Assembly: GCA_903879985.1 (NCBI GenBank)
Contig: CAIRNR010000006.1
Location: 32,505 to 96,504 of the forward strand
Source: an uncultured candidate division WWE3 bacterium
Lineage (GTDB): Bacteria > Patescibacteriota > WWE3 > UBA101185 > UBA10185
DNA length: 64,000 nt
Reading direction: 5' to 3'
Each line of letters starts with the position of its first letter. Within the stretch, counting starts at the first letter, position 1. Of the stretch, positions 5,755 through 22,244 are shown one piece after another. The position numbers were made by a program, and so were the translations under genes. Under the pieces are notes generated by a model. It searched no databases, was not told the DNA's origin, and saw only the letters and a list, made by a program, of their open reading frames with translations.

Positions 5755-5831
5755 GGGCGGTTAGCTCAGTTGGTTAGAGCGCCACATTGACATTGTGGAG
5801 GTCATAGGTTCAATTCCTATATCGCCCACCA
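5755..5831 (+). tRNA. tRNA-Val (anticodon GAC)
   Basis: The cloverleaf was folded by hand. Acceptor stem GGGCGGT/ATCGCCC, D-stem GCTC/GAGC, anticodon stem CCACA/TGTGG with loop TTGACAT, T-stem ATAGG/CCTAT with a TTCAATT loop, and a 3' CCA. An upstream TAGAAT -10-like element is present. Confidence 0.85.
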
Positions 5832-5948
5832 TGAATTAATTATAGGGTCAGTTATTTCCACTTTATCTTTTACTAACCACAAGTCGGCTTGTCGCTATAA
5901 TATAATTGTTCTACCAGAATCACTCCTATATAGGCAGAGAGCAACGTT

Positions 5949-5961
5949 ACTAGGTATAATC
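5949..5961 (+). promoter_or_regulatory. Promoter-like -10 (AGGTATAAT) upstream of the first island gene
   Basis: ttactaggtataatc lies about 8 nt before ATG 5969. A second TATAAT occurs at about 5897. Confidence 0.25.
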
Positions 5962-5968
5962 TAATCAA

Positions 5969-6490
5969 ATGAAAACTTTAACAACCAACACAACTGAACT
6001 AGATAAAAACTCCATATCCCTCGCAGGAGAATTTGCCGTTCTTTCCCAATTAGCACTACGAGGATACGACGCAAATTTAACTCTTGGGCATACAAAAGGT
6101 GTTGATATTCTTATCTCTAATCCTAAAACAAATAAAATGTTTAAAATGGAGGTTAAAACCTCCTATAAAAATGTTCCTACGACATATAAATTATTTGGTC
6201 ATTGTTTAGCCTGGGTAATGGGAGAGAAAAACGAAAATATAGCCGATCAAAATTTATTCTACTGCTTTGTTAATATAGAACATCCTGATTATAAATTCCG
6301 ATTCTTCATAATACCAAGTGCTGTGGTAGCAAAATATGTGAAAGAGCAGCATCAATATTGGATTTCAACAAGGACAGAAGATGTTGAAACTACAACAATG
6401 CGCCAATTTAGAATCGGACTGGAAGAAACGAAATACAACATAGATACGCCATTAGCAAGAGACTACGAAGATATGTGGGACCTTAGTTAG
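5969..6490 (+). CDS. Hypothetical protein with a YraN/Hjc-like PD-(D/E)XK nuclease signature
   Basis: GEFAVLSQLALRGYDANLTLGHTKGVDILIS...MFKMEVKTS reproduces the UPF0102/Holliday-junction-resolvase pattern GE..A..L..GY...D-I/L...hEVKt. Confidence 0.35.
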   Translation: MKTLTTNTTELDKNSISLAGEFAVLSQLALRGYDANLTLGHTKGVDILISNPKTNKMFKMEVKTSYKNVPTTYKLFGHCLAWVMGEKNENIADQNLFYCFVNIEHPDYKFRFFIIPSAVVAKYVKEQHQYWISTRTEDVETTTMRQFRIGLEETKYNIDTPLARDYEDMWDLS

Positions 6491-6580
6491 TAAAACAGTA
6501 ATAATCAGATACTCCCTAACACATTCTTCAGATAATTTAACTTCATATAAAGCCCAAAAGAAAAGGAATACAATTTAACT

Positions 6581-6778
6581 GTGAAAATAACCTTCCAAAT
6601 CGATCCTCAATACGACTACGATATGGTGTTACATATGTTGCGAGGAAAAGATTGGCAAAATAGGGCTAAACGCATGGGTTTAGATTTCTCTTTGGTTGAA
6701 AAAATTAATCAGGCAACCGGCACCGATATGTGTATTTTACTACAGACTAATCCTGCACAAAAAGGCAGCTATATCTAA
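6581..6778 (+). CDS. Hypothetical small protein
   Basis: ORF only; no recognisable motif. Confidence 0.2.
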   Translation: MKITFQIDPQYDYDMVLHMLRGKDWQNRAKRMGLDFSLVEKINQATGTDMCILLQTNPAQKGSYI

Positions 6779-6812
6779 TTATTTATACTAAAGATATCCG
6801 TTAACTCATGTT

Positions 6813-7616
6813 TTGTTGCCAGATGACACAAACCCCACTATAGACTATCCTATAATCAACATGTCCGAATACTACAACAACCAAAGAACACCAAAAAACT
6901 GCTACACAAAAGGCCAAACCGAACCATTTAAACTAAGCCGCTCCAAAATAGACAGCTTCCTCAAATGCCCCCGCTGCTTCTACATCGACCGCGTACTAGG
7001 CACAGGACAACCTCCGGGATTTCCATTTGCATTAAACAGTGCGGTAGACCATCTATTAAAACTAGAATTCGATATTCATAGGGCAGCTGGCTCAAAACAC
7101 CCACTAATCGAAAAATATGGTGTTGATGCAATACCTGCAGCTCACAAAGACTTAAATATATGGCGTGAAAACTTTAAAGGCGTTCAATTTCTACACAAAC
7201 CAACAAATTTATATGTATTTGGAGCCATAGATGACCTCTGGATCAACTCTAAAGGCGAATACATAGTTGTAGACTACAAATCCACAAGTAAGGACGAAGA
7301 AATAACAACATTAAATAAAGATTGGCAGGACGGCTATAAAAGACAAATGGAGGTTTATCAATGGTTGCTAAGACAAAATGGTTATAAGGTTTCGGAGACC
7401 GGTTACTTTGTATATTGTAACGGCGACACCGACAAAGCTGCCTTTGATGCAAAACTTGAGTTTGATATTACCTTGATTCCTTATGTTGGGGATGATAGTT
7501 GGATTGAAAAGGTTCTATTTGATATTAAAAAGTGCTTGGAGTCGGATGTGTTACCGGCCAGCGGTGAGGATTGTGATTATTGCGCATATTTTTATGCTAG
7601 GAAGGGACACGAATGA
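6813..7616 (+). CDS. Cas4-like / RecB-family PD-(D/E)XK nuclease with four Cys (probable Fe-S cluster)
   Basis: N-terminal CPRC, GAIDDLWINSKGEYIVVDYKS (D...E-hDYK), RQMEVYQWLL (QxxxY) and C-terminal CDYCAY. A possible internal start is MSEYYNN at 6861. Confidence 0.6.
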   Translation: MLPDDTNPTIDYPIINMSEYYNNQRTPKNCYTKGQTEPFKLSRSKIDSFLKCPRCFYIDRVLGTGQPPGFPFALNSAVDHLLKLEFDIHRAAGSKHPLIEKYGVDAIPAAHKDLNIWRENFKGVQFLHKPTNLYVFGAIDDLWINSKGEYIVVDYKSTSKDEEITTLNKDWQDGYKRQMEVYQWLLRQNGYKVSETGYFVYCNGDTDKAAFDAKLEFDITLIPYVGDDSWIEKVLFDIKKCLESDVLPASGEDCDYCAYFYARKGHE

Positions 7617-8119
7617 CTGAAATAACAATGTTTGCACCATCAGAAGACTTAATCTTTAACAAAGATATAAACGCTTTAAAAGAAAGAACTCGCCGCGGAA
7701 TCATGTGTATCTTAGGCCGAAAATTAGAAGATCCTAAAAATGAGTACTGGGTTAATTACTGCGTATGCATAAAGAACAATTACTTTATACAAATAATGAC
7801 AACAGAAAAAGAAGATGGGTTATTAATAGAACTAAGCAGCAGCCATTATTCTTCAGGCAGACTAAATCAAGCTAAGCTAGACATTATTTCAAGTTATGGC
7901 TATGAATTTGGAAATAAAATGAATCCAAACTTTCATAAAACCGTAACATTAACCCCGGACTTATTGTTCGAATTAGGTGACGAACTAACCGACATAATGT
8001 ATCGCGTCTTTGACCTTGAACAGCATCAGCCATTGAAGATTGAGTATGATCAGGATGTTTATCGGGCACCTTCACCATTTGCATCACGTTTATTTGGTTG
8101 GTTAAGAGGTATTAAATGA
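7613..8119 (+). CDS. Hypothetical protein (operon member)
   Basis: 4-nt ATGA overlap with the upstream gene; no known motif. Confidence 0.4.
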   Translation: MTEITMFAPSEDLIFNKDINALKERTRRGIMCILGRKLEDPKNEYWVNYCVCIKNNYFIQIMTTEKEDGLLIELSSSHYSSGRLNQAKLDIISSYGYEFGNKMNPNFHKTVTLTPDLLFELGDELTDIMYRVFDLEQHQPLKIEYDQDVYRAPSPFASRLFGWLRGIK

Positions 8120-8754
8120 ACCCAAACAACAAAACACTTTGCGCAACATGCAGCGGATTATTACCAGAAAACAAATGGCGACCTCGCCCAATAAACGAAT
8201 GGCGTGAAGTCATTTTATCCAAAGTATACAAATACGAAAACAACGACACCGATCCTAGATACGCCATATTCTCAAATGTCGCCTACAACCTTCAGTATTT
8301 AGAGTACTTACATAAATGCCTAGAAGAACAATATTTAACATCTGTTATTAGATCACAACTAGTAAAAACATTTACCTTAACATCTTCCCAAATTATTGAA
8401 TGCCTTTTGTATATCAAACTGCTTGATATGAAAGTAAACGAAAGCGAGATTTGGGAGTTTTCTAGAGCTTTGAAAATTGCCGAGCAAAAAAACGCGTACG
8501 GCCTTGGACCAATGTTTTATAAAAACGAATTGAAGAAAATTAAAGAGCTTAGAAATAAAGTTCATTTACAAACTTCTGAGGGTATCGCCGATGCTGATTA
8601 CGCTGTGTTTGCAAAAATTGAAGTGTTAAACGAAGTCAAAAAGATTTTGTTTAGTTTCATCCAAAAGTGTCTTTCGTTGCCAACGCCAACTATGAATGAA
8701 GTTTTTTATTTTTTGTTGCCTCTTGAGGATTATTTGCATTCGAGGAAGGATTAA
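8116..8754 (+). CDS. Hypothetical protein with an N-terminal CxxC (operon member)
   Basis: 4-nt ATGA overlap with the upstream gene; CATCSG near the N-terminus. Confidence 0.4.
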   Translation: MNPNNKTLCATCSGLLPENKWRPRPINEWREVILSKVYKYENNDTDPRYAIFSNVAYNLQYLEYLHKCLEEQYLTSVIRSQLVKTFTLTSSQIIECLLYIKLLDMKVNESEIWEFSRALKIAEQKNAYGLGPMFYKNELKKIKELRNKVHLQTSEGIADADYAVFAKIEVLNEVKKILFSFIQKCLSLPTPTMNEVFYFLLPLEDYLHSRKD

Positions 8755-8759
8755 AAACT

Positions 8760-9686
8760 ATGAAAAATTATTATAGAGTAATGTTAGGTCAAAAAAGCAT
8801 TTATGCTAAAGAAGCCTTTGAGGGTAACTTTATTGGAGCAGGATGGTTAGAAGATATTGATTTTACACATAAATTTCCGGATAACTGGCGCGAATTTAAC
8901 AAAAAATACATTCCTATCTACATAGAAGAGAACCCAGATAAAACAAAAGTTGCAGCCGGATTGGCCTGTGGGATGCTCTATACAATAACTAAAGGTATTC
9001 TTGTGGGTGATATTGTTTTATGTCCAGATGGTAAAGGAAACTACCTTGTAGGTGAAGTAATAGGTGAATATGAATATTTTAAGGGTGCGAATTTACCACA
9101 TAGACGAAAAGTTAGATGGTATCAAGATACGCTATCTCGAGATGAAATAAGTGAATCACTTAAGAATTCCGCTGGAAGCATTGGTACATTAAGTAATATT
9201 TCCAAATACGGAGCCGAAATTGAAGCTTTAATTTCGGGTAACCGTCCAGCTTCCATAATCTCTACGGACGAAACAATAGAAGATCCAAGCCTTTTTGCAC
9301 TTGAAAAACACTTAGAAGACTTTTTGGTACAAAATTGGCACCACACGGAACTTGGGCAACACTACGATATTTATTCAGAAGACGGAGAAATAGTAGGTCA
9401 ACAATACCCAAGCGACACCGGTCCAATTGACATTTTAGCTATAAGTAAAGATAAAAAAGAAATCCTTGTTGTAGAACTTAAAAAGGGAAGAGTAAGTGAT
9501 GTTGTAGTAGGTCAAATTCAAAGATACATGGGTTATGTTAAAGATGAATTAGCTGAAGAGAACCAAACAGTTAAAGGGGTTATTATAGGCTTTGAAGATG
9601 ATGTAAAGATACACAGAGCGTTATCTGTTGCACCCAACATTGATTTTTATACATATAAGATTCATTTTAAGTTAGAGAAAAAGTAA
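8760..9686 (+). CDS. Two-domain protein: N-terminal possibly PUA/EVE-like domain plus a C-terminal NucS/DUF91-like PD-(D/E)XK nuclease domain
   Basis: The C-terminus LEKHLEDFLVQNWHHTELGQHYDIYSEDGEIVGQQYPSDTGPIDILAISKDKKEILVVELKKGRVSDVVVGQIQRYMGYV fits E...D(IDIL)...ELK...Q..RY. The N-terminus has GAGW...ILVGDIVLCPDGKGNYLVGEVIGEYEY, which suggests a PUA-like fold. Confidence 0.5.
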   Translation: MKNYYRVMLGQKSIYAKEAFEGNFIGAGWLEDIDFTHKFPDNWREFNKKYIPIYIEENPDKTKVAAGLACGMLYTITKGILVGDIVLCPDGKGNYLVGEVIGEYEYFKGANLPHRRKVRWYQDTLSRDEISESLKNSAGSIGTLSNISKYGAEIEALISGNRPASIISTDETIEDPSLFALEKHLEDFLVQNWHHTELGQHYDIYSEDGEIVGQQYPSDTGPIDILAISKDKKEILVVELKKGRVSDVVVGQIQRYMGYVKDELAEENQTVKGVIIGFEDDVKIHRALSVAPNIDFYTYKIHFKLEKK

Positions 9687-9759: not shown

Positions 9760-10899
9760 ATGTTAGAAAACAATATTATCAACTCATTTAATGAATTTTT
9801 AACTTACTACGACGCATCCTCAAAGGATGAGCTTTGGAAAAATCAAAGCATAATTTTCCATAATTACTGGACAAGCAAAATCTTAAACAACAGTGATGAA
9901 TTAAACGACTTCGAAACTGATGAAATTGTTAAAATATTAGACAGAAACGGAAAAGGTAATACACACTCTAGTGATGCCATAGCCAAGGCTATGATACCTC
10001 AAGGCGCCTGGAGAAGGATGTTTAATGAAATTAAAAGCGAAGCTAGACTAAAGGAATTATTGAACAATATCTTCTCTGAAAACGATAACTCCAAGAAAAT
10101 TGAATATGTAAATCAATTATATAAATACAACGAAAAAAATAGAAATAGCCTAACAGGTAATAGCGGTACAGCAATAAATTGTATGGTTGCAGCTTGGGAC
10201 CCATTTAAAAACATAAGTGCTGTTTCTCTCAAGCATAGAAAGAAAATTTTTGAATTTCTGCAACTATCGGGGCTTGATTTTGATGAAGATACTCAAGGAA
10301 AAAAGATTGTAGTATCCAACGAACTAATATTAGGTTTTTTTGAAAACAAGGGCATAACAGCATCGGCAAGAACAATTTCTGCCTTCCTCTACAGTGACCC
10401 CATTAAAAAATTATGGGAAATAGACACAGGTGACGAAATTGTTCCTTATACAGAAGAAATACCCATATCCGAAACTGAGGGAACGACAAATCCTTCAATA
10501 TTTTATATGGAAAGCCAACTTGAGGATTTCATTATAGAAAACTGGGACAATACAGAATTAGGTAAAAGTTACGATTTGATTGAAGAAGAGGGTGAAATTG
10601 TAAGCCAACAATATCGCACACCAATAGGCATAATTGATATATTAGTTAAAGAAAAGAAAACAGACCGCTATGTCGTGATTGAACTAAAGAGGGATCAAAC
10701 TAGCGACTCTACTGTAGGTCAGTTAGCACGATACATGGGTTGGATTGAAGAAAATAAAGGCAAAGGCTTGCCACCCAAAGGTATCATCATCACTGCCAAA
10801 TATGACGAGAAATTGTTTTATGCACTTAAAAAAATCAAGGACACCGAAATTTATTTATACGAGGTTAAGTTTAAATTAAACGAATTCAAAAAATCCTAA
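9760..10899 (+). CDS. Two-domain protein: unknown N-terminal domain plus a C-terminal NucS/DUF91-like PD-(D/E)XK nuclease domain (paralog of the previous gene's C-terminus)
   Basis: MESQLEDFIIENWDNTELGKSYDLIEEEGEIVSQQYRTPIGIIDILVKEKKTDRYVVIELKRDQTSDSTVGQLARYMGWI aligns motif-for-motif with the C-terminus of 8760..9686. Confidence 0.5.
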   Translation: MLENNIINSFNEFLTYYDASSKDELWKNQSIIFHNYWTSKILNNSDELNDFETDEIVKILDRNGKGNTHSSDAIAKAMIPQGAWRRMFNEIKSEARLKELLNNIFSENDNSKKIEYVNQLYKYNEKNRNSLTGNSGTAINCMVAAWDPFKNISAVSLKHRKKIFEFLQLSGLDFDEDTQGKKIVVSNELILGFFENKGITASARTISAFLYSDPIKKLWEIDTGDEIVPYTEEIPISETEGTTNPSIFYMESQLEDFIIENWDNTELGKSYDLIEEEGEIVSQQYRTPIGIIDILVKEKKTDRYVVIELKRDQTSDSTVGQLARYMGWIEENKGKGLPPKGIIITAKYDEKLFYALKKIKDTEIYLYEVKFKLNEFKKS

Positions 10900-13779: not shown

Positions 13780-13794
13780 AGCAGCAGTTTAGCC
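13743..13794 (-). repeat. 52-bp repeat copy A: 15 nt of 5'-UTR plus the first 37 nt of the CDS
   Basis: tttcAgtttgttttcctgcctttaaaaagtTttccatagcagcagtttagcc is near-identical (2 mismatches) to 14316..14367. Confidence 0.8.
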
Positions 13795-13841
13795 TATACT
13801 AAATAGTTCGAATATCCCAACAGGAATCTTACCAAGAAAAC

Positions 13842-15820: not shown

Positions 15821-15836
15821 AAAGGAGAAAATAACA

Positions 15837-16016
15837 ATGGGTACCGATTTCACGCAAGTTGTTCGATGGCAACCTCGGTTAGCTGTAAACGCAAACTGCT
15901 CAGCTGAGACATGTCCCTCTGATGGAAAATGCTCTTCAGATGACAGTTCCGGTCATTCTTGCAGCGGCAACACTAACGACCCGTGTCCGCACGACAGTTC
16001 CTGTCCAAAAGACTAA
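15837..16016 (+). CDS. 59-aa Cys-rich putative RiPP precursor peptide (not in the ORF track)
   Basis: An AAAGGAGAAAA RBS lies 6 nt before the ATG, immediately after the rSAM stop. It translates to MGTDFTQVVRWQPRLAVNANCSAETCPSDGKCSSDDSSGHSCSGNTNDPCPHDSSCPKD, with six Cys in C-x-x-(D/E/N) repeats. Confidence 0.55.
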   Translation: MGTDFTQVVRWQPRLAVNANCSAETCPSDGKCSSDDSSGHSCSGNTNDPCPHDSSCPKD

Positions 16017-16101: not shown

Positions 16102-16983
16102 TTAATATTTTATTTTATTGAGATAGTCTGTTGTCAATTTTTCGGGCTTATCTTTTTCCAAAACCTCTAAATACTTTGCAGGCAATAGCATATCTAAATC
16201 AGTTCCTACTAATGAATAATTCTGTATGTTTTCTTCTGAATGACTTAAATACACTACAAGTGCACGGATTATGGATTCCTCTACATAAGTACTTGGATCC
16301 GCGTATGATCCCAAAACTTCTTCTGGCATTTTTTTGAGATAATCAACTACATCTTCTGGAATGGTTAAGGTACATTTATCTAAATAGCTGTGAGTTAATT
16401 CGTGCAGTATTTGACTTAAATTTATTCCTTCTTTTTTCCATCCAACCATAATGTAATAACCATCTTTAGTTTTTATACATTTTCCTGATGTATCCCAATT
16501 TCTAGTTAAATAAAAAGTCTTAATATCAGGTTCGAAGTCGAAGTGATTTTTAAAAAGATTTTCTATATCACTAAAACGTTCTTCAAATTCGTTTAGGCGC
16601 TTATCAAAATCCGGTTCGTATTGTTTCCACAGATTTTGTAATTCCGGTAATAAAGATATTCGGTCAACATAATCTAAAACTTCTTTGGCAGGAAGCATAA
16701 ACTTACCGTTATCATCATAGCCAGCGGAGTTAAATATTCCCATAAGATAATGGTAGCTATGCATGGGCATATCCAGTTTTGGAGTTCCTGATTTCTCAAG
16801 TATTGCTACAACCTTATCTTTGAGTTCAGAAACCCAATCTTTGTAGCCAATAGTGCGATTATTAGCATAAAACATAGCACAGTACATGTGGAAATGTTTT
16901 TGTAACTTAACTGTTTTAAGTTCCATACCACCATGATACAACAAATGTGGGGTTTTGAACGATAAGCCCACCTCCGGCACCAA
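16102..16983 (-). CDS. Hypothetical HExxH zinc-metallopeptidase-like protein
   Basis: LHELTHSYLD motif; no other recognisable domain. Confidence 0.4.
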   Translation of the reverse strand: MVPEVGLSFKTPHLLYHGGMELKTVKLQKHFHMYCAMFYANNRTIGYKDWVSELKDKVVAILEKSGTPKLDMPMHSYHYLMGIFNSAGYDDNGKFMLPAKEVLDYVDRISLLPELQNLWKQYEPDFDKRLNEFEERFSDIENLFKNHFDFEPDIKTFYLTRNWDTSGKCIKTKDGYYIMVGWKKEGINLSQILHELTHSYLDKCTLTIPEDVVDYLKKMPEEVLGSYADPSTYVEESIIRALVVYLSHSEENIQNYSLVGTDLDMLLPAKYLEVLEKDKPEKLTTDYLNKIKY

Positions 16984-17000
16984 AATGCTAAACTACACGT

Positions 17001-17681
17001 ATGCTTAATCTAAATATTCAATATTCCTTAGAGAAAGATGCTGAAACTTACGTTAGCTACGTCTACCAATTTGAAGCTTTAGAACATGGCAGAGTAAACC
17101 CAAAAAAAGAATTACTCGAAAGACTTGATCAGGAATTACAAAATATTTTGGCTAACACAAAAGATAAGGAAACGGCATATACAGAGGTACTTTCTTACCT
17201 AACTAAAAAGAACTATGAAAACCCACAGTTGCTCAAAAATAGCATCAAAACCCTTGAAGACCGCTGGAACGCTGTAGGAAGCCAAGTAATTTATTCTTTA
17301 GAATTTTTATATAATAAACCCTTTCCGTTTGAAAACGTCACACTGTATTTAACAACCAATAATATATGTCCATATTCTTATGAAGATAAGTATTTCTTTG
17401 CAAACTACAAATATGCCTCAGAACAAATGGATATCGCAAAACATGAACTAAACCATTTTATGTTCTATTACTATTACGATTCATTAAGAAATAAACTGGA
17501 CTTAGAAAAATATGAGCTTCTTAAAGAAGCATTAACGCTTTTTTCAAGTCCTAACCAAACTGGAAAACCAAACGAACTTCCTTTAAGAAAGTTTTTTGAA
17601 ACAAAGTTATGGGCAAATCTTGATGAGGCTATTGCAGCTGGTTGTGATTTCCTATTAAAGTACTATCCTGAAGTCAAATAA
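17001..17681 (+). CDS. Hypothetical HExxH-motif protein
   Basis: AKHELNHFMF motif. Confidence 0.35.
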   Translation: MLNLNIQYSLEKDAETYVSYVYQFEALEHGRVNPKKELLERLDQELQNILANTKDKETAYTEVLSYLTKKNYENPQLLKNSIKTLEDRWNAVGSQVIYSLEFLYNKPFPFENVTLYLTTNNICPYSYEDKYFFANYKYASEQMDIAKHELNHFMFYYYYDSLRNKLDLEKYELLKEALTLFSSPNQTGKPNELPLRKFFETKLWANLDEAIAAGCDFLLKYYPEVK

Positions 17682-17782
17682 TAGGCAGGTACTGTAAGGA
17701 ATAAGGGAATTAAGCTGTAACAACGCAAAAGTTCCAAACACACAATACGCAAATAAAATACCAGTGTTATCATTAAAACCAG

Positions 17783-18163
17783 ATGCTCATATACAAATAC
17801 ATCGAAAACTACTTTGAAGATAATCCGGGTGCAGAAGCTTTCTGCGAGGAACACGACATAGTATATTTCACACCTACACCTGAGCGAAAAGCATGGCTTG
17901 AAAACTGGCTTAAAACTGCAAAACCTCCGATTATTGAATGTACGCCTGATGTTGTTTGCTATTGGAGATACTTTGGGGTTTGGGGAGAATATCACCCAAA
18001 CAATAATTCCATATCAATATGCCCAATTGAAATAGAAAAGGCCGGGGGTTTGGAGGAGGTTATTAGACACGAACTAGTGCACCTGCAACATCCTGAAGCT
18101 AACGATATGCCTCACGAGGAAAAAGAGGATTATATAAATAACGCAGGTAAAAGCAAAGAATAG
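17783..18163 (+). CDS. Small HExxH protein, SprT/WLM-like
   Basis: IRHELVHLQHPE is HExxH plus a downstream His, as in SprT-like domains. Confidence 0.35.
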   Translation: MLIYKYIENYFEDNPGAEAFCEEHDIVYFTPTPERKAWLENWLKTAKPPIIECTPDVVCYWRYFGVWGEYHPNNNSISICPIEIEKAGGLEEVIRHELVHLQHPEANDMPHEEKEDYINNAGKSKE

Positions 18164-18420
18164 CCTAGTCTTCCTAAAGAGTTTTTTAATCGATGACTCT
18201 GCAAAAGTTCCAAACATCCTCCATAATCTCCCACCAGGCTTTTCAGCTTGGTATACCAACATTATTTTTATATACCCAACTAGGAATTTAGACCTATCCA
18301 CGACCAAACCACTACCCTATAGTTTGACTATTTACCCATTTTATCCTATAATTACATCATAAATCGTTATTAAACCGCACAATTATGACGGCTAATCAAA
18401 AATAAAAAGGGAGATAAAAA

Positions 18421-18681
18421 ATGGTACGCAACACAATGATGCTACCCAAAGTAATGGGCGATGAAACAACTGACACCAGAGATGCGTTGGAAAAACTGGG
18501 ATTCATCATAACCAACGACACATATTCCGACTCATACGAAGTGTTGGCACCGGAAGGTTGGACAATAGAATGGAAAGGTCGCGATGGCGCTGTTTTTAAT
18601 GAAAAACATGAGGCTGTTGTCTGGCTTTGGAGAAAAACGGATTTCTGGCAACCGATATTTACGATGCGTCTGCATCCCTAA
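18421..18681 (+). CDS. Hypothetical small protein
   Basis: AAAAGGGAGAT RBS; preceded by a partial copy of the repeated leader. Confidence 0.35.
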   Translation: MVRNTMMLPKVMGDETTDTRDALEKLGFIITNDTYSDSYEVLAPEGWTIEWKGRDGAVFNEKHEAVVWLWRKTDFWQPIFTMRLHP

Positions 18682-18715
18682 GTCGCCAGAAATAAACAGA
18701 AGGATGTATATTTAG

Positions 18716-18843
18716 CACAAGAGGCAAACAGTAGAAATCCTTACTGCTTTGCCTCCTAACTCAAGTTTATTTTTTTAAAGTAGATTTAAGTTAGGAAGTT
18801 TAACCGCATAAATGACTGCGGAATCATAATCAAAGGAGACGAC
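18716..18843 (+). repeat. Repeated structured intergenic element, copy 1 (hairpin, T-run and conserved leader)
   Basis: GAGGCAAACAGTAG...TACTGCTTTGCCTC hairpin, then CTAACTCAAG...TTAAGTTAGG, then CCGCA...TGCGG just before the AAAGGAGA RBS. Paralogous to 19325..19457 with compensatory changes. Confidence 0.6.
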
Positions 18844-19305
18844 GTGAAAACGATAAAGGCTACAATAGAAATTTTGGATAAGTTACATCAAGTACTGATG
18901 GAATGCGGTGAAACTGCCGAGATTACTGGGGAAAATAAAAAGTTTTACTTTATTGAAAAACCCAGCAGAGTAATCTCAAAGAGATCAAAAGGATTGGTAA
19001 TTTTGACCCCGGATGAAGTCCTAAATCTTCACCTGCAAAGACTTGACGGAGAAGATTTTGAAAAGTTTCTCAAAAATAGCACACTGGGAGATCAATGGGC
19101 GCCTGCAATACACACCATCTGGAACACATACAAACAACGTGCAGGTGTGGAAACAGTGGAGGACCATGCTGATAACTATAACCTCGGGCATGGATTAATT
19201 CGATACTGGTTCAAAACAGCACGAAAGAATTTATGGTACTGCGAAGTGCGCCAGAAGGAATCAGAAACGATAATGTCCAGGTATTTTCATTTTTACGGGT
19301 ACTAA
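18844..19305 (+). CDS. Hypothetical protein (GTG start)
   Basis: AAAGGAGAC RBS; ORF only. Confidence 0.35.
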   Translation: MKTIKATIEILDKLHQVLMECGETAEITGENKKFYFIEKPSRVISKRSKGLVILTPDEVLNLHLQRLDGEDFEKFLKNSTLGDQWAPAIHTIWNTYKQRAGVETVEDHADNYNLGHGLIRYWFKTARKNLWYCEVRQKESETIMSRYFHFYGY

Positions 19306-19324
19306 AAGTAATCAGAAAATGCGC

Positions 19325-19457
19325 AGTGTAACAAGGGACAAACAGTAGCACAATTTTACTGCTTGTCCCCTAACTTAAGTCTATTTACCAAAGTAGGTTT
19401 AAGTTAGGAATTTAATCGCATACGATCTGATGCGAAATTATAAAAGGAGAGACAGCT
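19325..19457 (+). repeat. Repeated structured intergenic element, copy 2
   Basis: GGGACAAACAGTAG...TACTGCTTGTCCCC, then CCTAACTTAAG...CTTAAGTTAGG, then TCGCAT...ATGCGA before the AAAGGAGAG RBS. Confidence 0.6.
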
Positions 19458-19691
19458 ATGCCAATGAAAATCGATAGTATGAAAGTGGGCGAAAAATACA
19501 AGATAAATGTTCACGACGAAGACAACAAGCCGCTAACCCTGGAATTCACCATCCTTGAAATAGATTGGTATCCAAGTGCCACGGGCAGAGGATTTTTCCA
19601 CGGCACGAAGGTTCAATTTACAACGGGAGAAATTGAAATCCTTCCATTTCTCGTGCTTGATTCCGCTGAAAAAGTAAAGGAAGAGGCATAA
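19458..19691 (+). CDS. Hypothetical small protein
   Basis: RBS plus ORF; a terminator follows. Confidence 0.35.
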   Translation: MPMKIDSMKVGEKYKINVHDEDNKPLTLEFTILEIDWYPSATGRGFFHGTKVQFTTGEIEILPFLVLDSAEKVKEEA

Positions 19692-19709
19692 GTTAATATC
19701 TGCACTAAA

Positions 19710-19756
19710 AGGGTCTTTGACAGTTAAAATGCTGCTAAAGACCCTGATTTTTTTTA
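19710..19756 (+). terminator. Rho-independent terminator
   Basis: AGGGTCTTT...AAAGACCCT stem followed by GATTTTTTTTTATT. Confidence 0.55.
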
Positions 19757-19815
19757 TTCTTTAACAACACAAAAATTCCATTGACACTAGAAATTAAATA
19801 GAACTAAACTAAGAT

Positions 19816-20007
19816 ATGAAAAAGATTGCAATCTTACTTGGCATAATTATATTAATTTTAATGGCATATTTTTCGTATTCTTTCTTTTACATGAAATCCT
19901 TCTTAGGTAAACCTACTATTACTTGTGCCAAAGGAGAATATATACATCAAGGTCCTATTTGGCCAAATCCTAATTATTGTTGTCCAAAAGACACGATTTG
20001 TGACTAA
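19816..20007 (+). CDS. Small membrane/secreted Cys-rich peptide (63 aa)
   Basis: N-terminal hydrophobic helix MKKIAILLGIIILILMAYF, then 4 Cys (TCAKGEY...YCCPKDTICD). Confidence 0.3.
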   Translation: MKKIAILLGIIILILMAYFSYSFFYMKSFLGKPTITCAKGEYIHQGPIWPNPNYCCPKDTICD

Positions 20008-20143
20008 TAAATAAGTTAAACCTCTAATTCACGCGAACATCTTATAGCGTTTGACCTTTTATCCGAGTACAGCTACAATACCAAGCAATTGCAATATTAA
20101 CCGCAACAAATAAAGTAGCGGAATAAACGGAAACGGAGGAAAG

Positions 20144-20407
20144 ATGATCTTAAAAGATTTTGTTGAAGGAAAAGAGTACATATTATCCAATGTACCAGGG
20201 CTGACCACGTTTACCTTTGAAACAAACTCCGACAAACGTGTGCTTTTTACCGCGCCAGAAGTGCGCTTAAAGTTTTTGCAACCGAATCTGGAATTCGATG
20301 GCAATTACTTAACCTTTGAGGTTCTCGATGGCGAGCACAAAGGAAAGACAGTGGACATCATGGTGAGCAACGTCGACCGGATTTCTGAAAGCGAAAAGGA
20401 AAACTAA
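20144..20407 (+). CDS. Hypothetical protein
   Basis: GGAGGAAAG RBS; translationally coupled (taacATG) to the next ORF. Confidence 0.35.
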   Translation: MILKDFVEGKEYILSNVPGLTTFTFETNSDKRVLFTAPEVRLKFLQPNLEFDGNYLTFEVLDGEHKGKTVDIMVSNVDRISESEKEN

Positions 20408-20408
20408 C

Positions 20409-21080
20409 ATGCCTTGCATAAGAATTTGGGCAAAACAGCAGGACCTGGATAAAATTTCCACTACGCCACAACGGCTGGAAAGAATACAGGAAGCGTTGGA
20501 AGATTTACTGATGAAAACTTTGGCCGAAACATTGAGCCAAAACGGTAATGTTGTGACGCCGGATAAGATCGAAGTTGTGTGGGCCATTACTCAACGCACG
20601 CGCAACTCAGTGAATTATGCTGTGGACATTTTGTTTTCAGAACGAAGTGAAACTGGTGATCCTGGCTACATAACCGACCCGGAACTGCGACAGCAAATTC
20701 GTGATGAGATGCTGTACGCAGTAACCACGTTTCAAAAGTTACCTTTGAACGCTACGGTAGGTGTATGGGTCTGCCCGCAACTTGGTGGAGCATACACATC
20801 AGGACAATGCCAACCTGATATGGCAAAAGAAAGGTTTGTTCCAAAAAAGTATTACGTACTCCAGAATAGGGCGGGAACAAAAACCTTTGGCCTCGTGACA
20901 CGCACAAACAGTGTGGTCGCCTTGGCAGAAGGACACATAACAATGCGTTTTGTTGGATATACCCAAAAACCCGGAGAGGATCTGTTTTTGACCTTTAAAG
21001 TTGAAAGCGGCGCAAACATCGGTGAAGTCATTGATATACGACCATCAAATGCGCACAAGTTTGTTGAGTCGTACGTTTAA
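20409..21080 (+). CDS. Hypothetical protein (GC-elevated segment)
   Basis: ORF followed by a strong terminator. Confidence 0.4.
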   Translation: MPCIRIWAKQQDLDKISTTPQRLERIQEALEDLLMKTLAETLSQNGNVVTPDKIEVVWAITQRTRNSVNYAVDILFSERSETGDPGYITDPELRQQIRDEMLYAVTTFQKLPLNATVGVWVCPQLGGAYTSGQCQPDMAKERFVPKKYYVLQNRAGTKTFGLVTRTNSVVALAEGHITMRFVGYTQKPGEDLFLTFKVESGANIGEVIDIRPSNAHKFVESYV

Positions 21081-21093
21081 GTTTAGTACCAAA

Positions 21094-21131
21094 AACCCTC
21101 TACGGATGAGAAACGCAGAGGGTTATTTTTT
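21094..21131 (+). terminator. Rho-independent terminator
   Basis: AACCCTCT...AGAGGGTT stem followed by ATTTTTTCC. Confidence 0.6.
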
Positions 21132-21325
21132 CCACCTACTGTTTTCGCTATAGGTTGTAAAGCAGCAAGCCTTATGTTATATTATCCACAATCTAAACCA
21201 ACCTAGGAGGAAGGTGTATTGTTTTTAAACGTTGCGGTGACAACAGGGTTACTGCAAAGTTTGTTTTTTTTAACCCAGGTATTTAAATATTTGGGAACCT
21301 ATTCGAACCAAAAGGAAGGGTAAGA

Positions 21326-21673
21326 ATGTTATCAGCACGTATGTACTGGGACGGCAATTCATGGCATATGGAGTTGAATGAGAATAAAAAAATTCATTCG
21401 GCTACCACAACTCGAGCAAGAACAATTTCCGAGTTCCTGGGCATGGCTAAACAAACTGGATTGCCAGAAGATATTGACGCGTACGATGTTACACTGGAAA
21501 AAGTCATGGTGAAACCTCGTATCGGCGGCGATTGCATGGCAGGAAAAAGGTTGATTGTTGAAGTTTGCCCCTACTGTGGTAAGCAACACATTCACACCAC
21601 GCGCTTTGGGGCCGATGAAACAATGGATCGAATGGCAGACTGCGGGGGTGAATACACGCTAGACTGCAACTAA
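21326..21673 (+). CDS. Hypothetical protein with a CxxC...C Zn-ribbon-like motif
   Basis: AAAAGGAAGGG RBS; VCPYCGKQH...DC motif. Confidence 0.35.
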   Translation: MLSARMYWDGNSWHMELNENKKIHSATTTRARTISEFLGMAKQTGLPEDIDAYDVTLEKVMVKPRIGGDCMAGKRLIVEVCPYCGKQHIHTTRFGADETMDRMADCGGEYTLDCN

Positions 21674-21711
21674 ATTAATCTACGAAACCTTAAAAACTTC
21701 GTAGAAACAAC

Positions 21712-21757
21712 AGGGAGCTACATCAAATAAAACTGATGCCGGCTCCCTTATTTTTTG
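21712..21757 (+). terminator. Terminator-like hairpin plus T-run
   Basis: AGGGAGC...GCTCCCT stem followed by TATTTTTTGG. It is preceded by a second perfect hairpin CTACGAA...TTCGTAG (21680-21703). Confidence 0.45.
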
Positions 21758-21844
21758 GCCTTAACTATATTCTAAATATTAATGTGAAAAATTATGCAAA
21801 AAAATTGCCCCTTAGAACCATGTTATGGATTCGTTCGGGGCATT

Positions 21845-21960
21845 TAAAGAAAAAAGCAGGAGCGGTAGGAGTAGTGGTAGTGGTTTCTCTTCTGGTAGTG
21901 GTGGCGGTTCTAGTGGTAGCACTTCTATTAGCAGTAGTTTCGAATTTTACCCTTCAATCC
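21845..21960. repeat. Low-complexity GGT/AGT-rich tract (Gly/Ser-rich in one frame, poly-Val/Leu in another)
   Basis: ggagcggtaggagtagtggtagtggtttctcttctggtagtggtggcggttctagtggtagc. The overlapping ORFs 21736..22047 and 21825..22067 are of uncertain reality. Confidence 0.4.
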
Positions 21961-22244
21961 CAGGCGTGGGTGTTTTCCATACTTGCAATGTCTTTCATAG
22001 ATTTAGTATGGGACCATCACATTTCCAACCTAGAGGTTACCTGTTAAGCTTCTCTTTCACTATTTGAGGTATATTCACTCAAACACCGACATGTCGTGAA
22101 ATCAACATAATCGGGAAGCTGGGCGCCGTAGATTCAGGCTGATGTTGGTATATTACCAGAAACCTATAGGTTTCGCAACCTGTACGAAGCCGGTTGCCCC
22201 AATTTACTATTTATTTATTTTTCTCAGTGATATATCATTTATTA

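What the first reader, a model, noticed from the sequence alone, without database searches (positions are those of the whole stretch)
5755..22100. About 16-kb accessory island at the 3' end of tRNA-Val, dense in nuclease-fold genes and compositionally patchy
Core genes tig-clpP end at tRNA-Val(GAC). About 25 small or hypothetical genes follow before the housekeeping-like context resumes. They include a YraN/Hjc-like gene (5969), a Cas4-like gene (6813), two NucS-like genes (8760, 9760), a NERD gene (11025), an FtsK-gamma/Zn-ribbon gene (12589), a RiPP cassette, three HExxH proteins and a series of short ORFs. GC content rises to roughly mid-40s% in segments 14486-16020 and about 18400-21700, against roughly 33-36% in the flanks. 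No integrase or direct repeat of the tRNA 3' end was found by eye.
Basis: partly seen in the sequence, partly recalled or inferred. Interest (0 to 1): 0.6.

Follow-up and report, generated by a model that had tools for sequence, protein, structure and literature searches.

The report
Defence-gene island beside tRNA-Val in WWE3
Next to a tRNA-Val gene in an uncultured candidate division WWE3 bacterium lies lineage-specific DNA with no integrase, made of a horizontally acquired cluster of nuclease-type defence genes, a peptide-modification cassette and a run of orphan small genes; it is a fairly ordinary flexible genomic island, but larger and more composite than first described.

Summary
tRNA-Val(GAC) is at 5755-5831, after tig-clpP, and about 24 small or hypothetical genes follow. 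Six have nuclease folds. Two patches are GC-rich.

- In 19 related WWE3 genomes, tRNA-Val is followed within 0.02-8.7 kb by cupin-truB-thrS-infC. In the window that block starts at 42963, so about 37 kb is lineage-specific and 22100 is not a boundary.
- The closest species (tig 77% identical) has the DNA that follows its tRNA matching window 18226-18295. This sets off a 12.4-kb segment (5832-18238) absent at that site in that species.
- The tRNA-proximal 8.5 kb holds a 173-aa PD-(D/E)XK protein, a Cas4-like protein, a full-length PADLOC PDC-S02 candidate, its paralogue, NERD, an FtsK-gamma protein and others. These genes have normal composition but are 76-84% identical to genes in other Patescibacteria. 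One such locus is an intact element with a serine recombinase and primase, inserted at tRNA-Gln in another WWE3 genome.
- The rSAM/SPASM, Cys-rich peptide and HExxH module has positional analogues in two relatives.
- The small-gene array at 18.4-21.7 kb is GC3-rich and orphan. It shares only its intergenic elements with the sister species.

No integrase or significant att repeat is present. Verdict: a new member of a known kind, an additive tRNA-adjacent defence island. One unexplained item is a conserved 33-37-nt motif at boundaries of variable DNA.

The parts
5755..5831 (+). tRNA-Val(GAC), the proximal anchor of the island
   Evidence: ARAGORN and Rfam tRNA at 72.5 bits. clpP-tRNA-Val is conserved in all WWE3 relatives examined.
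5969..6490 (+). 173-aa PD-(D/E)XK nuclease-fold protein
   Evidence: No Pfam hit. phrog_26985 at 1.9e-10. 869 homologues at 56-72% identity across CPR. D46/E61/K63 are invariant. AF2 pLDDT 89. Foldseek hits SPARDA DREN, I-Ssp6803I and Hjc. In L141 and L142 it is paired with a Cas4-like gene.
6581..6778 (+). 65-aa ORF of unknown function
   Evidence: ORF list. No family hits. Called as a gene in some assemblies only.
6861..7616 (+). Solo Cas4-like PD-(D/E)XK nuclease, 251 aa as called (the ORF is open from 6813)
   Evidence: PDDEXK_1 at 9.5e-15. PADLOC Cas4 models at 2.5e-10. 76% identical to the copy in the tRNA-Gln element of WWE3 contig L094 and 59% to L092.
7613..8754 (+). Two overlapping ORFs (168 aa at 7613-8119 and 212 aa at 8116-8754), packed tightly between the Cas4-like and PDC-S02 genes
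   Evidence: Start and stop codons overlap. No family hits in Pfam, PADLOC, NCBIfam or PHROGs.
8760..9686 (+). PDC-S02 candidate defence protein: a YTH/EVE-like N-terminal domain (Pfam DUF8426) fused to a NucS-type PD-(D/E)XK nuclease
   Evidence: PADLOC PDLC04799 at 1.4e-160 over the full length. NucS_C. More than 8000 homologues, with the top 120 at 75-85% identity across several Patescibacteria lineages. AF2 pLDDT 77. Foldseek hits NucS/EndoMS at 4e-6 and YTH domains at 5e-3 to 8e-3.
9760..10899 (+). 379-aa protein with a different N-terminus and a PDC-S02/NucS-type C-terminal nuclease
   Evidence: NucS_C at 3.6e-12 and YhcG_C. Matches the C-terminal part of PADLOC PDC-S02 at 1.1e-42.
11025..12140 (+). 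NERD-domain protein, 371 aa
   Evidence: NERD at 1.4e-14. 48% identical to the NERD gene at the end of the L094 element.
12235..12546 (+). 103-aa ORF of unknown function
   Evidence: ORF list. No family hits.
12589..13188 (-). FtsK-gamma winged-helix protein with a CxxC...CxxC Zn-ribbon
   Evidence: FtsK_gamma at 3.3e-22. PHROG FtsK/SpoIIIE-like at 8.9e-12. The Cys pairs are read from the translation.
13228..14351 (-). Transglutaminase-like cysteine protease (13228-13779) and GNAT acetyltransferase (13842-14351), which share a duplicated 5' end
   Evidence: Transglut_core at 2.5e-13 and Acetyltransf_10 at 4.1e-17. A 53-nt direct repeat at 96% identity covers the RBS and the first 13 codons of both genes.
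14486..16016 (+). RiPP-like cassette: a radical SAM/SPASM maturase (14486-15820) and a Cys-rich 59-aa ORF (15837-16016); GC-rich patch
   Evidence: Radical_SAM at 7.8e-18. NCBIfam rSAM/SPASM peptide-maturase models (PapB 1.6e-35 and others) all score below their cut-offs. Peptide sequence. GC 43.5-50%, GC3 z = 1.7-2.5.
16102..18163 (.). Three HExxH proteins: 16102-16983(-) with HELTH, 17001-17681(+) with HELNH and 17783-18163(+) with HELVH
   Evidence: Motifs located. No family hits. The 226-aa protein is homologous to the HExxH gene that precedes the same motif in L138 (phmmer 1.5e-7).
18202..18238 (+). Conserved 33-37-nt motif ending in CCCACCA (ATCTCCCACCA here; the tRNA ends ATCGCCCACCA); it marks the distal end of the segment absent in the sister species
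   Evidence: Alignment with L088. nhmmer finds 11 instances in four WWE3 species, all in the same orientation and all intergenic. On its own the similarity to the tRNA end is not significant.
18237..18295 (+). Element 'A': the sequence that directly follows tRNA-Val in the sister species
   Evidence: Window 18226-18295 is 88.6% identical to L088 11805-11874.
18309..18378 (+). Element 'C': a conserved promoter and 5'UTR (TTGACT-17-TATAAT)
   Evidence: 85.7% identical to L088 12720-12789. Promoter scan scores 11 of 12.
18421..21673 (+). Array of seven small orphan genes (86, 153, 77, 63, 87, 223 and 115 aa) with repeated upstream elements (D copies at 18748-18813 and 19360-19422; 5'UTR hairpin TTAAYCGC..GCGR)
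   Evidence: No Pfam or PHROG hits. Six of the seven have GC3 of 0.41-0.51, z = 2-4. The 223-aa protein has 8 relatives among 1.84e9 representatives. D elements are shared with L088 13391-13455. The hairpin pattern matches 3 times against 0.23 expected, with 2 compensatory pairs.
42963..43346 (+). Cupin gene, first gene of the conserved cupin-302aa-truB-thrS-infC-rpmI-rplT block that follows tRNA-Val in other WWE3 genomes; the true distal limit of lineage-specific DNA
   Evidence: blastp and tblastn synteny in L008-L024, L088 and L138. Pfam.

Best explanation
This is a composite flexible ('additive') genomic island with no integrase, at the 3' side of tRNA-Val in a candidate division WWE3 (Patescibacteria) chromosome.

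The tRNA-proximal part (about 5.9-14.4 kb) is a horizontally acquired cluster dominated by nuclease-fold defence-type genes: a small PD-(D/E)XK protein paired with a solo Cas4-like protein, the PDC-S02 candidate, its paralogue, and NERD, plus an FtsK-gamma DNA-binding protein, a transglutaminase-like protease and a GNAT.

The most likely route of arrival is delivery by tRNA-targeting integrative elements of the kind seen intact in another WWE3 genome (large serine recombinase + primase + the same cargo). The recombinase and replication module would then have been lost, so the island can no longer move by itself.

Distal to this lie two further modules. One is an older RiPP-type module (rSAM/SPASM maturase, Cys-rich peptide, HExxH putative peptidases). 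The other is a hypervariable array of orphan small genes driven by conserved promoter and 5'UTR elements.

Inferred function: restriction-like attack on foreign DNA. PDC-S02 is read as a modified-base reader (YTH/EVE-like) fused to a NucS-type nuclease, which would make it a type IV-like restriction enzyme. The island would also make a modified peptide.

Shown: gene content, absence from relatives at this site, boundaries against the sister species, and the cross-lineage identity pattern. Inferred: the mode of delivery and all biochemical functions.
For: 1. Location and absence in relatives. tig-clpP-tRNA-Val is conserved, but no island gene occurs downstream of it in the 17 relatives of L008-L024 that have sequence past the tRNA, nor in L088 or L138.
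2. In the sister species L088, tRNA-Val is followed directly by sequence A. In the window, A lies at 18237, preceded by ATCTCCCACCA, which matches 10 of the last 11 nt of the tRNA.
3. Signature of horizontal transfer.
- PDC-S02 is 75-85% identical to homologues annotated as Woesebacteria, Paceibacterota and 'Patescibacteria group'.
- The Cas4-like protein is 76% identical to a copy in a WWE3 genome whose tig is only 61% identical.
- By comparison, the best non-self tig hit is 77% and the rest about 60%, and ClpP is 53-56% identical to non-WWE3 CPR.
4. The same cargo is found on mobile elements.
- In L094/L095, tRNA-Gln is overlapped by the 3' end of a 549-aa large serine recombinase gene. Then follow a Toprim primase, DUF5659 and a Terminase_2-like gene, then PDC-S02, PLD/SNF2, a methyltransferase, the Cas4-like gene, FtsK and NERD.
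- L091 has a serine recombinase, an HTH_17 protein, PDC-S02 and an MmeI-type RM system.
- L092, L141 and L142 place these genes next to RM modules.
5. tRNA-Val ends are duplicated nearby in other WWE3 genomes: a perfect 21-nt repeat in L024 and a 13-nt exact copy in L088.
6. Six nuclease-fold proteins are confirmed.
7. The arrangement is real. Independent assemblies from at least four samples carry it.
8. The architecture fits the published additive-island model for tRNA-adjacent islands built by transient integrative elements (tycheposons; bioRxiv 10.1101/2020.12.28.424599). Genomic islands carrying RM genes are already reported in Patescibacteria (PMC12455944).
Against: - There is no integrase, recombinase or primase gene in the window, and no pseudogene remnant of one.
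- There is no statistically significant repeat of the tRNA end within the window.
- The 'displaced tRNA end' at 18202-18238 belongs to a motif family that also occurs away from tRNA-Val and is conserved between species. It therefore cannot be a simple decaying att relic.
- Gene order differs from the intact L094 element, and only three genes are shared with it.
- The tRNA-proximal genes have native composition.
- In more distant WWE3 genomes the same interval holds ordinary genes (P-type ATPase, PPDK), and no integrase family was among the families listed. The interval may therefore simply be a synteny breakpoint.
- All available same-species contigs are identical, so presence/absence polymorphism is not demonstrated.
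- None of the defence functions has been tested. PDC-S02 is only a PADLOC candidate.
Confidence: 0.6

Rival explanations
1. A flexible region maintained by homologous recombination, with no site-specific integration. DNA taken up by natural transformation (the genome encodes type IV pilus genes) recombines through the conserved flanks, clpP-tRNA-Val on one side and cupin-truB-thrS on the other. Content between the flanks is swapped or accreted, and the tRNA is incidental.
For: - Both flanks are conserved across WWE3, and the content between them differs in nearly every species. That content includes ordinary metabolic and transport genes, and no integrase family was among the families listed.
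- No integrase and no significant att repeat are present here.
- Against L088, the small-gene array keeps its intergenic elements but changes its genes.
- A type IV pilus cluster is present at 28.6-36.7 kb.
Against: - The junction with the sister species falls exactly at the tRNA 3' end or its 11-nt look-alike.
- Duplicated tRNA-Val ends occur in L024 and L088.
- The same cargo genes travel on an element with a serine recombinase inserted at a tRNA in another WWE3 genome.
Confidence: 0.25
2. An ancestral WWE3 region kept here and lost in the relatives (differential loss), not acquired.
For: - The RiPP + HExxH + motif module has positional analogues in L138 and L088.
- The genes at 5.9-14.4 kb have native GC and GC3.
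Against: - At least 19 independent losses would be needed.
- PDC-S02, the Cas4-like protein and the 173-aa protein are more similar to copies in distant CPR lineages than housekeeping proteins are.
- Their homologues sit in different genomic contexts elsewhere.
Confidence: 0.07
3. A degraded prophage or phage satellite.
For: - The related intact elements carry Terminase_2-like, DUF5659 and primase genes.
- The 173-aa, 379-aa and FtsK-gamma proteins have weak PHROG hits.
Against: - No structural, lysis, terminase, primase or integrase genes, or fragments of them, are present in the window.
- No close PDC-S02 relatives and no motif copies were found in IMG/VR.
Confidence: 0.06
4. An assembly chimera joined at the conserved tRNA.
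For: Two Logan contigs end inside the tRNA, at window position 5791.
Against: Contigs from several independent samples and assemblers span clpP-tRNA-island and island-GLUG-pilus with 100% identity.
Confidence: 0.02

Closest known systems
tRNA-adjacent additive genomic islands built by transient integrative elements (Prochlorococcus 'tycheposon' islands; Hackl et al., bioRxiv 10.1101/2020.12.28.424599)
   Same: - The island abuts the 3' side of a tRNA gene in a small streamlined genome.
- It is a heterogeneous mix of transferred material that cannot move as a unit.
- Defence cargo is present.
- A related intact element (recombinase + primase + cargo) is seen at another tRNA in a related genome.
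- tRNA-end look-alikes lie inside the region.
   Different: - No resident element or integrase fragment is present here.
- The partial-tRNA evidence is weak: 10 of 11 nt, within a motif that also occurs away from tRNAs.
- The recombinase in the related WWE3 element is a large serine recombinase, and no tyrosine recombinase was seen.
- Strain-level turnover is not shown, because all available contigs are identical.
Classical tRNA-integrated genomic islands as catalogued by Islander (PMC4383910)
   Same: It lies at the 3' end of a tRNA gene, the tRNA is intact, it is absent from relatives, and it carries cargo of accessory genes.
   Different: The defining integrase and the displaced tRNA fragment that mark the endpoints are missing or not significant.
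Defence islands, and the PADLOC candidate single-gene system PDC-S02
   Same: - It carries a full-length PDC-S02 match (E = 1e-160) clustered with Cas4-like, NERD and other PD-(D/E)XK genes.
- In other genomes the homologues sit beside type I, type III/ISP and MmeI-type RM systems and on mobile elements.
   Different: - No RM methyltransferase, CRISPR array or experimentally validated system is present here.
- PDC-S02 itself is untested.
- The host is a Patescibacterium, and the protein is unusually conserved (75-85% identity) across several Patescibacteria lineages.
Type IV (modification-dependent) restriction enzymes with PUA-like/EVE/YTH or SRA reader domains fused to PD-(D/E)XK nucleases (for example the MspJI and McrBC families), and NucS/EndoMS
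   Same: The predicted two-domain architecture is a YTH-like reader plus a NucS-type nuclease.
   Different: - Fold matches to MspJI and McrBC are weak.
- Neither the specificity of the reader domain nor catalysis is known.
- NucS is a mismatch-repair enzyme with a different N-terminal domain.
rSAM/SPASM RiPP clusters (ranthipeptide/sactipeptide type)
   Same: The rSAM has the CxxxCxxC motif and a C-terminal SPASM-like Cys cluster, with an adjacent Cys-rich small ORF and nearby putative metallopeptidases.
   Different: - No NCBIfam equivalog cut-off is reached.
- The candidate precursor lies downstream of the enzyme, not upstream.
- The HExxH proteins match no known family.
Integron gene-cassette arrays
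   Same: In L138 and L139, single-gene units are separated by a conserved site in one orientation, and strain-variable content breaks exactly at that site.
   Different: There is no IntI-type integrase, the motif is not palindromic like attC, and only one strong copy occurs in the window.

Membership tests
tRNA-integrated genomic island (Islander-type) | Abuts the 3' end of an intact tRNA or tmRNA gene | tested here: met
   tRNA-Val is at 5755-5831 and the first island gene starts at 5969.
tRNA-integrated genomic island (Islander-type) | Encodes an integrase (tyrosine or serine recombinase) | tested here: not met
   No recombinase family was found in Pfam, NCBIfam, PHROG or PADLOC scans. tblastn with the L091 and L094 recombinases and primase finds nothing in the window.
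tRNA-integrated genomic island (Islander-type) | A displaced copy of the tRNA 3' fragment marks the distal end | tested here: inconclusive
   - There is no exact repeat of 12 nt or more, and no 18-mer copy with up to 3 mismatches.
- The local-alignment score is within the null range.
- However, 10 of 11 nt (ATCTCCCACCA) directly precede the sequence that follows the tRNA in the sister species.
- That 11-mer is part of a conserved motif also found away from tRNAs.
tRNA-integrated genomic island (Islander-type) | Absent at this site in related genomes | tested here: met
   19 WWE3 relatives lack these genes downstream of tRNA-Val.
tRNA-integrated genomic island (Islander-type) | Atypical composition | tested here: inconclusive
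   The whole region has the same GC as the window mean, 37.1%. Only the rSAM cassette and the small-gene array deviate, in GC3 with z up to 4.
Defence island | A cluster of several recognised defence genes | tested here: inconclusive
   One full-length PADLOC candidate (PDC-S02), one partial PDC-S02 match and Cas4-like matches are present. NERD and the 173-aa protein have no PADLOC hit, and no validated system is present.
Defence island | Homologues co-localise with known defence systems or mobile elements elsewhere | tested here: met
   Homologues lie next to type I, MmeI-type, type III/ISP-like RM and PLD-SNF2 systems, and on elements carrying a serine recombinase.
Defence island | Protection against phage or foreign DNA | not testable with these tools
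   This needs heterologous expression and a phage or plasmid challenge.
Tycheposon-like element | Recombinase plus replication (primase/helicase) module plus cargo, flanked by tRNA att repeats | tested here: not met
   It is not met in the window. The recombinase + primase + cargo beside a tRNA are seen in the related WWE3 locus L094, but its distal end was not retrieved, so flanking repeats are unverified.
PADLOC PDC-S02 | Full-length match to the family HMM | tested here: met
   PDLC04799 at E = 1.4e-160, covering 1-307 of 308.
Cas4 (CRISPR adaptation nuclease) | PD-(D/E)XK domain with a Cys cluster, encoded in a CRISPR-cas locus | tested here: not met
   The domain match is present. No cas genes were found in the scanned ORFs and no repeat array in 5600-22600, so it is a solo Cas4-like gene.
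rSAM/SPASM RiPP maturase cluster | rSAM CxxxCxxC motif, SPASM auxiliary Cys cluster, and an adjacent precursor peptide | tested here: inconclusive
   Radical_SAM and many rSAM/SPASM maturase models match over residues 90-424, but all score below their curated cut-offs. The adjacent Cys-rich 59-aa ORF is an unverified precursor.
Integron | IntI integrase, attI site, and palindromic attC sites bounding the cassettes | tested here: not met
   There is no integrase. By eye the motif lacks dyad symmetry.

The most novel reading that the evidence does not exclude
The 33-37-nt motif (consensus about AnTAGTTCGCACATCCTnACAnATGGCCCACCA; window copy at 18202-18238) could be the recombination site of an undescribed cassette-exchange system in WWE3 bacteria.

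The supporting pattern is as follows.
- The motif is conserved at 83-90% between species whose housekeeping genes are about 70% identical at the DNA level.
- It is always in one orientation and usually lies 7-41 nt after a gene end.
- It ends like the tRNA-Val acceptor strand.
- In two strains of one species (L138 and L139), DNA that is 99.8% identical begins exactly at the motif, and the motif-separated single-gene units to its left are unrelated.

Under this reading, the region downstream of tRNA-Val is an integron-like accretion site. The real tRNA end would serve as the primary attachment site, and each incoming unit would bring a new motif copy.
Probability: 0.15. Interest if true: 0.75.

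Novelty: new member of a known kind. Interest (0 to 1): 0.4.

Why it matters
Patescibacteria have tiny genomes, mostly lack CRISPR, and are thought to be poor in classical defence. How they gain and keep accessory genes is not well mapped. This locus gives a concrete, independently assembled example of a tRNA-anchored flexible region in WWE3. Its tRNA-proximal cargo is a set of nuclease genes that are far more conserved across several Patescibacteria lineages than housekeeping proteins are. In a related genome the same genes ride on a tRNA-inserted element with a serine recombinase and a primase.

Three things become testable:
- PDC-S02 as a widespread CPR defence nuclease that may depend on DNA modification.
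- The conserved pair of the small PD-(D/E)XK protein and the Cas4-like protein as an RM accessory module.
- The boundary motif as a possible recombination site.

As a genomic island in itself it is not surprising.

Tried and rejected
1. Exact or near-exact copies of the tRNA 3' end in the window: none of 12 nt or more, and no 18-mer with up to 3 mismatches. A Smith-Waterman scan gave scores within the shuffle null.
2. Strain polymorphism: all same-species contigs are 100% identical. The apparent 11-nt indel in L144 is a run of Ns at a scaffold gap.
3. A metagenome scan with a 20-mer from element A gave 35 hits. None showed extended similarity, so all are chance matches and the scan was wasted.
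4. IMG/VR scans with elements A, C and D, with three versions of the motif, and with the PDC-S02 protein gave either nothing or chance hits.
5. Integrases in the variable interval of 12 relatives: the families listed are ordinary metabolic and transport families, and 2 of the 27 families matched were not shown.
6. Remnants of recombinase or primase genes in the window: none.
7. Homology between the window's 168-, 212- and 103-aa proteins and the small neighbours of the Cas4-like gene in L092 and L094: none.
8. Orthology of the L138 rSAM with the window rSAM: only 25% identity, which is similarity at family level only.
9. A by-eye similarity between the L024 spacer and L088 region X was not supported by blastn.
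10. Rfam, at gathering thresholds on the whole window and at E-value thresholds on 17.6-22.3 kb, found only the tRNA.
11. Reading the motif as a foldable tRNA T-arm or as a sigma-70 promoter: by eye it has no complementary stem and no consistent hexamers or spacing.
12. High GC3 as a mark of high expression: ribosomal protein and infC genes in the window have low GC3, so this was rejected.

Full report
ORGANISM AND OBSERVATION

The window comes from a candidate division WWE3 (Patescibacteria) chromosome. The best ClpP matches among GTDB species representatives are WWE3 MAGs at 64-79% identity. tRNA-Val(GAC) lies at 5755-5831, after a trigger factor that matches only the Trigger_N and Trigger_C Pfam domains and ClpP. 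From 5969 to 21673 there are 24 ORFs.

- PDDEXK_1/Cas4-like at 6861-7616.
- Two NucS_C/YhcG_C proteins at 8760-9686 and 9760-10899.
- NERD at 11025-12140.
- FtsK_gamma at 12589-13188(-).
- Transglutaminase-like and GNAT genes on the minus strand.
- A radical SAM/SPASM enzyme at 14486-15820, followed by a Cys-rich 59-aa ORF.
- Three proteins with HExxH motifs.

The 173-aa protein at 5969 had no family hit. It nevertheless has invariant D46, E61 and K63 across 33 homologues and a confident model (pLDDT 89). Its fold matches PD-(D/E)XK nucleases: SPARDA DREN, I-Ssp6803I, Hjc and EcoRV. 'Dense in nuclease-fold genes' is therefore correct, with six such genes in 6 kb.

COMPOSITION

The region as a whole is 37.1% GC, identical to the window mean. 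Segment 14486-16020 is 44.2% GC and 18400-21700 is 40.4% GC.

At gene level, genes outside the region have GC3 of 0.306 +/- 0.051. Genes at 5969-14351 are normal (|z| up to 1.7). The rSAM gene (z = 1.7), its peptide (z = 2.5) and six of the seven small genes at 18421-21673 (GC3 0.41-0.51, z = 2-4) stand out.

GC peaks elsewhere in the window, for example in the pilin genes, come from GC2 and not from GC3. Tetranucleotide correlation with the window dips at about 9-14 kb, but similar dips occur at 34-36.5 kb. 'Patchy' is right. However, composition does not flag the part that comparative evidence shows most clearly to be foreign.

COMPARATIVE TEST

Seventeen of the nineteen relatives L008-L024 retrieved by ClpP have sequence past the tRNA. 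In all of them, and in the two closer relatives found through trigger factor (L088 at 77% tig identity; L138 at 61%), tig-clpP-tRNA-Val is conserved. It is followed, after only 0.02-8.7 kb, by a conserved block of cupin, a 302-aa protein, truB, thrS, infC, rpmI and rplT.

In the window that block starts at 42963. About 37 kb (5832-42962) is therefore lineage-specific at this site, not 16 kb.

What follows 22100 is not housekeeping. It is a GLUG-motif protein (probably surface-located), a glutamine amidotransferase, a hemerythrin, a histidine kinase with two response regulators, a type IV pilus cluster and glycosylation genes. Some of these have homologues elsewhere near tig in relatives, and their GC3 is native. 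I read that part as rearranged resident DNA, but this is not resolved.

None of the island genes occurs after tRNA-Val in any relative.

In more distant relatives the variable interval holds ordinary genes (P-type ATPases, PPDK), and no integrase family was among the families listed.

BOUNDARY AGAINST THE SISTER SPECIES

In L088 the tRNA is followed directly by ...ATCGCCCACCA|GGATTTTCAGCTTGGTATACCAA.... The window has ...ATCTCCCACCA|GGCTTTTCAGCTTGGTATACCAA... at 18226-18295, which is 88.6% identical over 70 nt.

Two further non-coding blocks follow in the same order in both genomes:
- Block C, window 18309-18378, which contains TTGACT-17-TATAAT.
- Block D, window 18748-18813, with a second copy at 19360-19422.

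The genes between these blocks are unrelated in the two species.

Against L088, the window thus has a 12.4-kb segment (5832-18238) between the tRNA and its former flank. It also has a small-gene array that is positionally homologous but has different gene content.

WHAT THE 'DISPLACED tRNA END' REALLY IS

On its own, the similarity of 18202-18238 to the tRNA end is not significant.

More importantly, this sequence belongs to a conserved 33-37-nt motif family. It has 11 instances in four WWE3 species: window 18202; L088 12517; L138 277, 1706, 2402 and 14306; L139 119, 994, 2401 and 14306; and L019 4288. It has no instance in the other roughly 1.5 Mb of loci searched.

All copies are intergenic and in one orientation. 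Most lie 7-41 nt after a gene end, and they are often followed by a sigma-70-like promoter.

L138 and L139 encode identical trigger factors. Their DNA is 99.8% identical from exactly the motif at 2402 onward and unrelated to its left, where each carries different single genes separated by further motif copies.

In L138 the motif at 14306 closes the variable interval between tRNA-Val and the cupin gene. It shares the 11-nt string GCCCACCATAG with the end of the tRNA and the first bases after it.

An HExxH gene sits directly upstream of the motif in the window, in L088 and in L138. L138 also has an rSAM/SPASM gene with a Cys-rich 58-aa ORF next to it. The RiPP + HExxH + motif module (window 14.5-18.2 kb) is therefore a recurrent resident of this locus and not a recent import.

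I cannot decide whether the motif is a recombination site, a regulatory element or a transcript-end signal. It is absent from IMG/VR and from Rfam.

Independently, the tRNA-Val end is duplicated nearby in other WWE3 genomes. L024 has a perfect 21-nt repeat 143 nt downstream, and L088 has a 13-nt exact copy. This is what integrase-mediated insertion leaves behind.

ORIGIN OF THE tRNA-PROXIMAL CLUSTER

The 308-aa protein is a full-length member of the PADLOC candidate PDC-S02 (E = 1.4e-160). It has more than 8000 homologues. The top 120 are 75-85% identical and are annotated as Woesebacteria, Paceibacterota and 'Patescibacteria group'.

By comparison, the best non-self trigger factor hit is 77% and the rest about 60%. 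ClpP is 53-56% identical to non-WWE3 CPR.

The Cas4-like protein is 76% identical, and the NERD protein 48% identical, to genes on a 263-kb WWE3 contig whose tig is 61% identical.

On that contig (L094/L095), tRNA-Gln is overlapped by the 3' end of a 549-aa large serine recombinase gene. The following genes come next, in order:
- a Toprim primase, DUF5659 and a Terminase_2-like gene;
- PDC-S02, a PLD/SNF2 helicase and a methyltransferase;
- the Cas4-like gene, FtsK and NERD.

The same contig has an ordinary tRNA-Val locus.

Other contexts are these:
- L091: a serine recombinase, an HTH_17 protein, PDC-S02 and an MmeI-type RM system.
- L092: PDC-S02, a type I RM system and a Cas4-like gene.
- L141 and L142: the 173-aa family lies directly upstream of a Cas4-like gene and downstream of RM helicase and methyltransferase genes.

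The window contains no recombinase or primase gene and no fragment of one.

LIKELY FUNCTIONS (INFERRED)

The PDC-S02 model (pLDDT 77) matches NucS/EndoMS (E = 4e-6). Its N-terminal half matches YTH domains (E = 5e-3 to 8e-3). Matches to MspJI and McrBC are weak. This suggests a modified-base reader fused to a PD-(D/E)XK nuclease, that is, a type IV-like restriction enzyme. The literature lists PDC-S02 only as a PADLOC candidate.

The rSAM enzyme matches many rSAM/SPASM peptide-maturase models, all below their cut-offs. The HExxH proteins may be peptidases associated with it.

The small-gene array is made of near-orphans: the 223-aa protein has 8 relatives among 1.84 billion representatives. 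Its genes share a 5'UTR hairpin, TTAAYCGC-loop-GCGR. The pattern matches three times, all within the array, against 0.23 expected. Two compensatory pairs are seen among six sequences.

RELIABILITY

Contigs from at least four independent samples and assemblers carry the same order, from clpP through the island into the pilus cluster, at 100% identity. Misassembly is excluded. For the same reason, no within-species presence/absence variation is available.

VERDICT

This is a real accessory region and a new member of a known kind: an additive, tRNA-adjacent genomic or defence island, as described for other streamlined bacteria, with genomic islands already reported in Patescibacteria.

It is composite, has lost any mobility genes, and its limits differ from those proposed.

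The best-supported mechanism is delivery of defence cargo by tRNA-targeting integrative elements, followed by decay. I put this at about 0.6 overall, and lower for the delivery step alone. The main rival is turnover between conserved flanks driven by homologous recombination, at about 0.25.

The most novel reading still open is that the conserved CCCACCA-ending motif is the site of a cassette-exchange system. I put its probability at about 0.15.

Noticed in passing
window 18202-18238; also L088 12517-12552; L138 277, 1706, 2402, 14306; L139 119, 994, 2401, 14306; L019 4288: A conserved 33-37-nt intergenic motif ends in CCCACCA and always has the same orientation. In two strains of one species, DNA that is 99.8% identical begins exactly at the motif, and unrelated single-gene units separated by the motif lie to its left.
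   Followed up: partly
window 18237-18295, 18309-18378, 18748-18813, 19360-19422; L088 11816-11874, 12720-12789, 13391-13455: Non-coding promoter and 5'UTR blocks are 82-89% identical between the two species, more than tig-clpP DNA at 72%. The small genes they precede are unrelated. The genes have elevated GC3 and almost no homologues.
   Followed up: partly
window 18800-18821, 19412-19435, 20097-20121 (variant at about 18366): A short 5'UTR hairpin, TTAAYCGC-loop-GCGR, lies upstream of the array genes. There are 3 exact pattern matches against 0.23 expected, and two compensatory base-pair changes among six sequences.
   Followed up: partly
window 13742-13794 and 14314-14366: A 53-nt direct repeat at 96% identity: the adjacent minus-strand transglutaminase-like and GNAT genes share the same ribosome-binding region and first 13 codons (MEnFLKAGKQTE).
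   Followed up: no
window 22194-42985: About 20 kb also lies between tRNA-Val and its usual neighbour in this lineage only. It holds a GLUG-motif protein (probably surface-located), GATase, hemerythrin, a histidine kinase with two response regulators, a type IV pilus cluster with three tandem 154-aa pilin-like genes, and glycosylation genes. GC3 is native, and it is probably rearranged resident DNA.
   Followed up: partly
L094 3102-4762 (WWE3 contig Ga0373628_0000020): A 549-aa large serine recombinase gene has a 3' end that overlaps tRNA-Gln on the opposite strand. It heads an element with a primase, DUF5659, a Terminase_2-like gene and defence cargo. This looks like a tRNA-targeting integrative element family in CPR. 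Its distal end was not retrieved.
   Followed up: partly
L024 10781-10801 and 10945-10965: A perfect 21-nt direct repeat of the tRNA-Val 3' end (CGATTCCTGTACCGCCCACCA) lies 143 nt downstream of the tRNA in another WWE3 genome. It is an att-like scar with no element between the copies.
   Followed up: partly
window 5969-7616; L141 6001-7267; L142 6001-7244: The 173-aa PD-(D/E)XK family and a Cas4-like PDDEXK_1 gene form a conserved adjacent pair in several CPR genomes, usually just downstream of RM helicase and methyltransferase genes. This may be an RM accessory module.
   Followed up: partly
L138 11758-14342: A second WWE3 species has an rSAM/SPASM gene, a Cys-rich 58-aa ORF, an HExxH protein (26% identical to window 17001-17681) and the boundary motif between tRNA-Val and the cupin gene. 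It is a positional analogue of window 14486-18238.
   Followed up: partly
window 8760-9686: PDC-S02-like proteins are 75-85% identical across several Patescibacteria lineages, more conserved than trigger factor or ClpP. More than 8000 homologues were found.
   Followed up: partly
window 5791: Two Logan contigs end inside the tRNA at the same base. This is probably due to k-mers shared with tRNA-Val of other WWE3 species in the sample and not to strain polymorphism.
   Followed up: no
window 21736-22067: A low-complexity stretch encodes Gly/Ser-rich or Val-rich peptides in overlapping frames, between the small-gene array and the GLUG protein gene. One frame is called as an 80-aa gene in other assemblies.
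   Followed up: no
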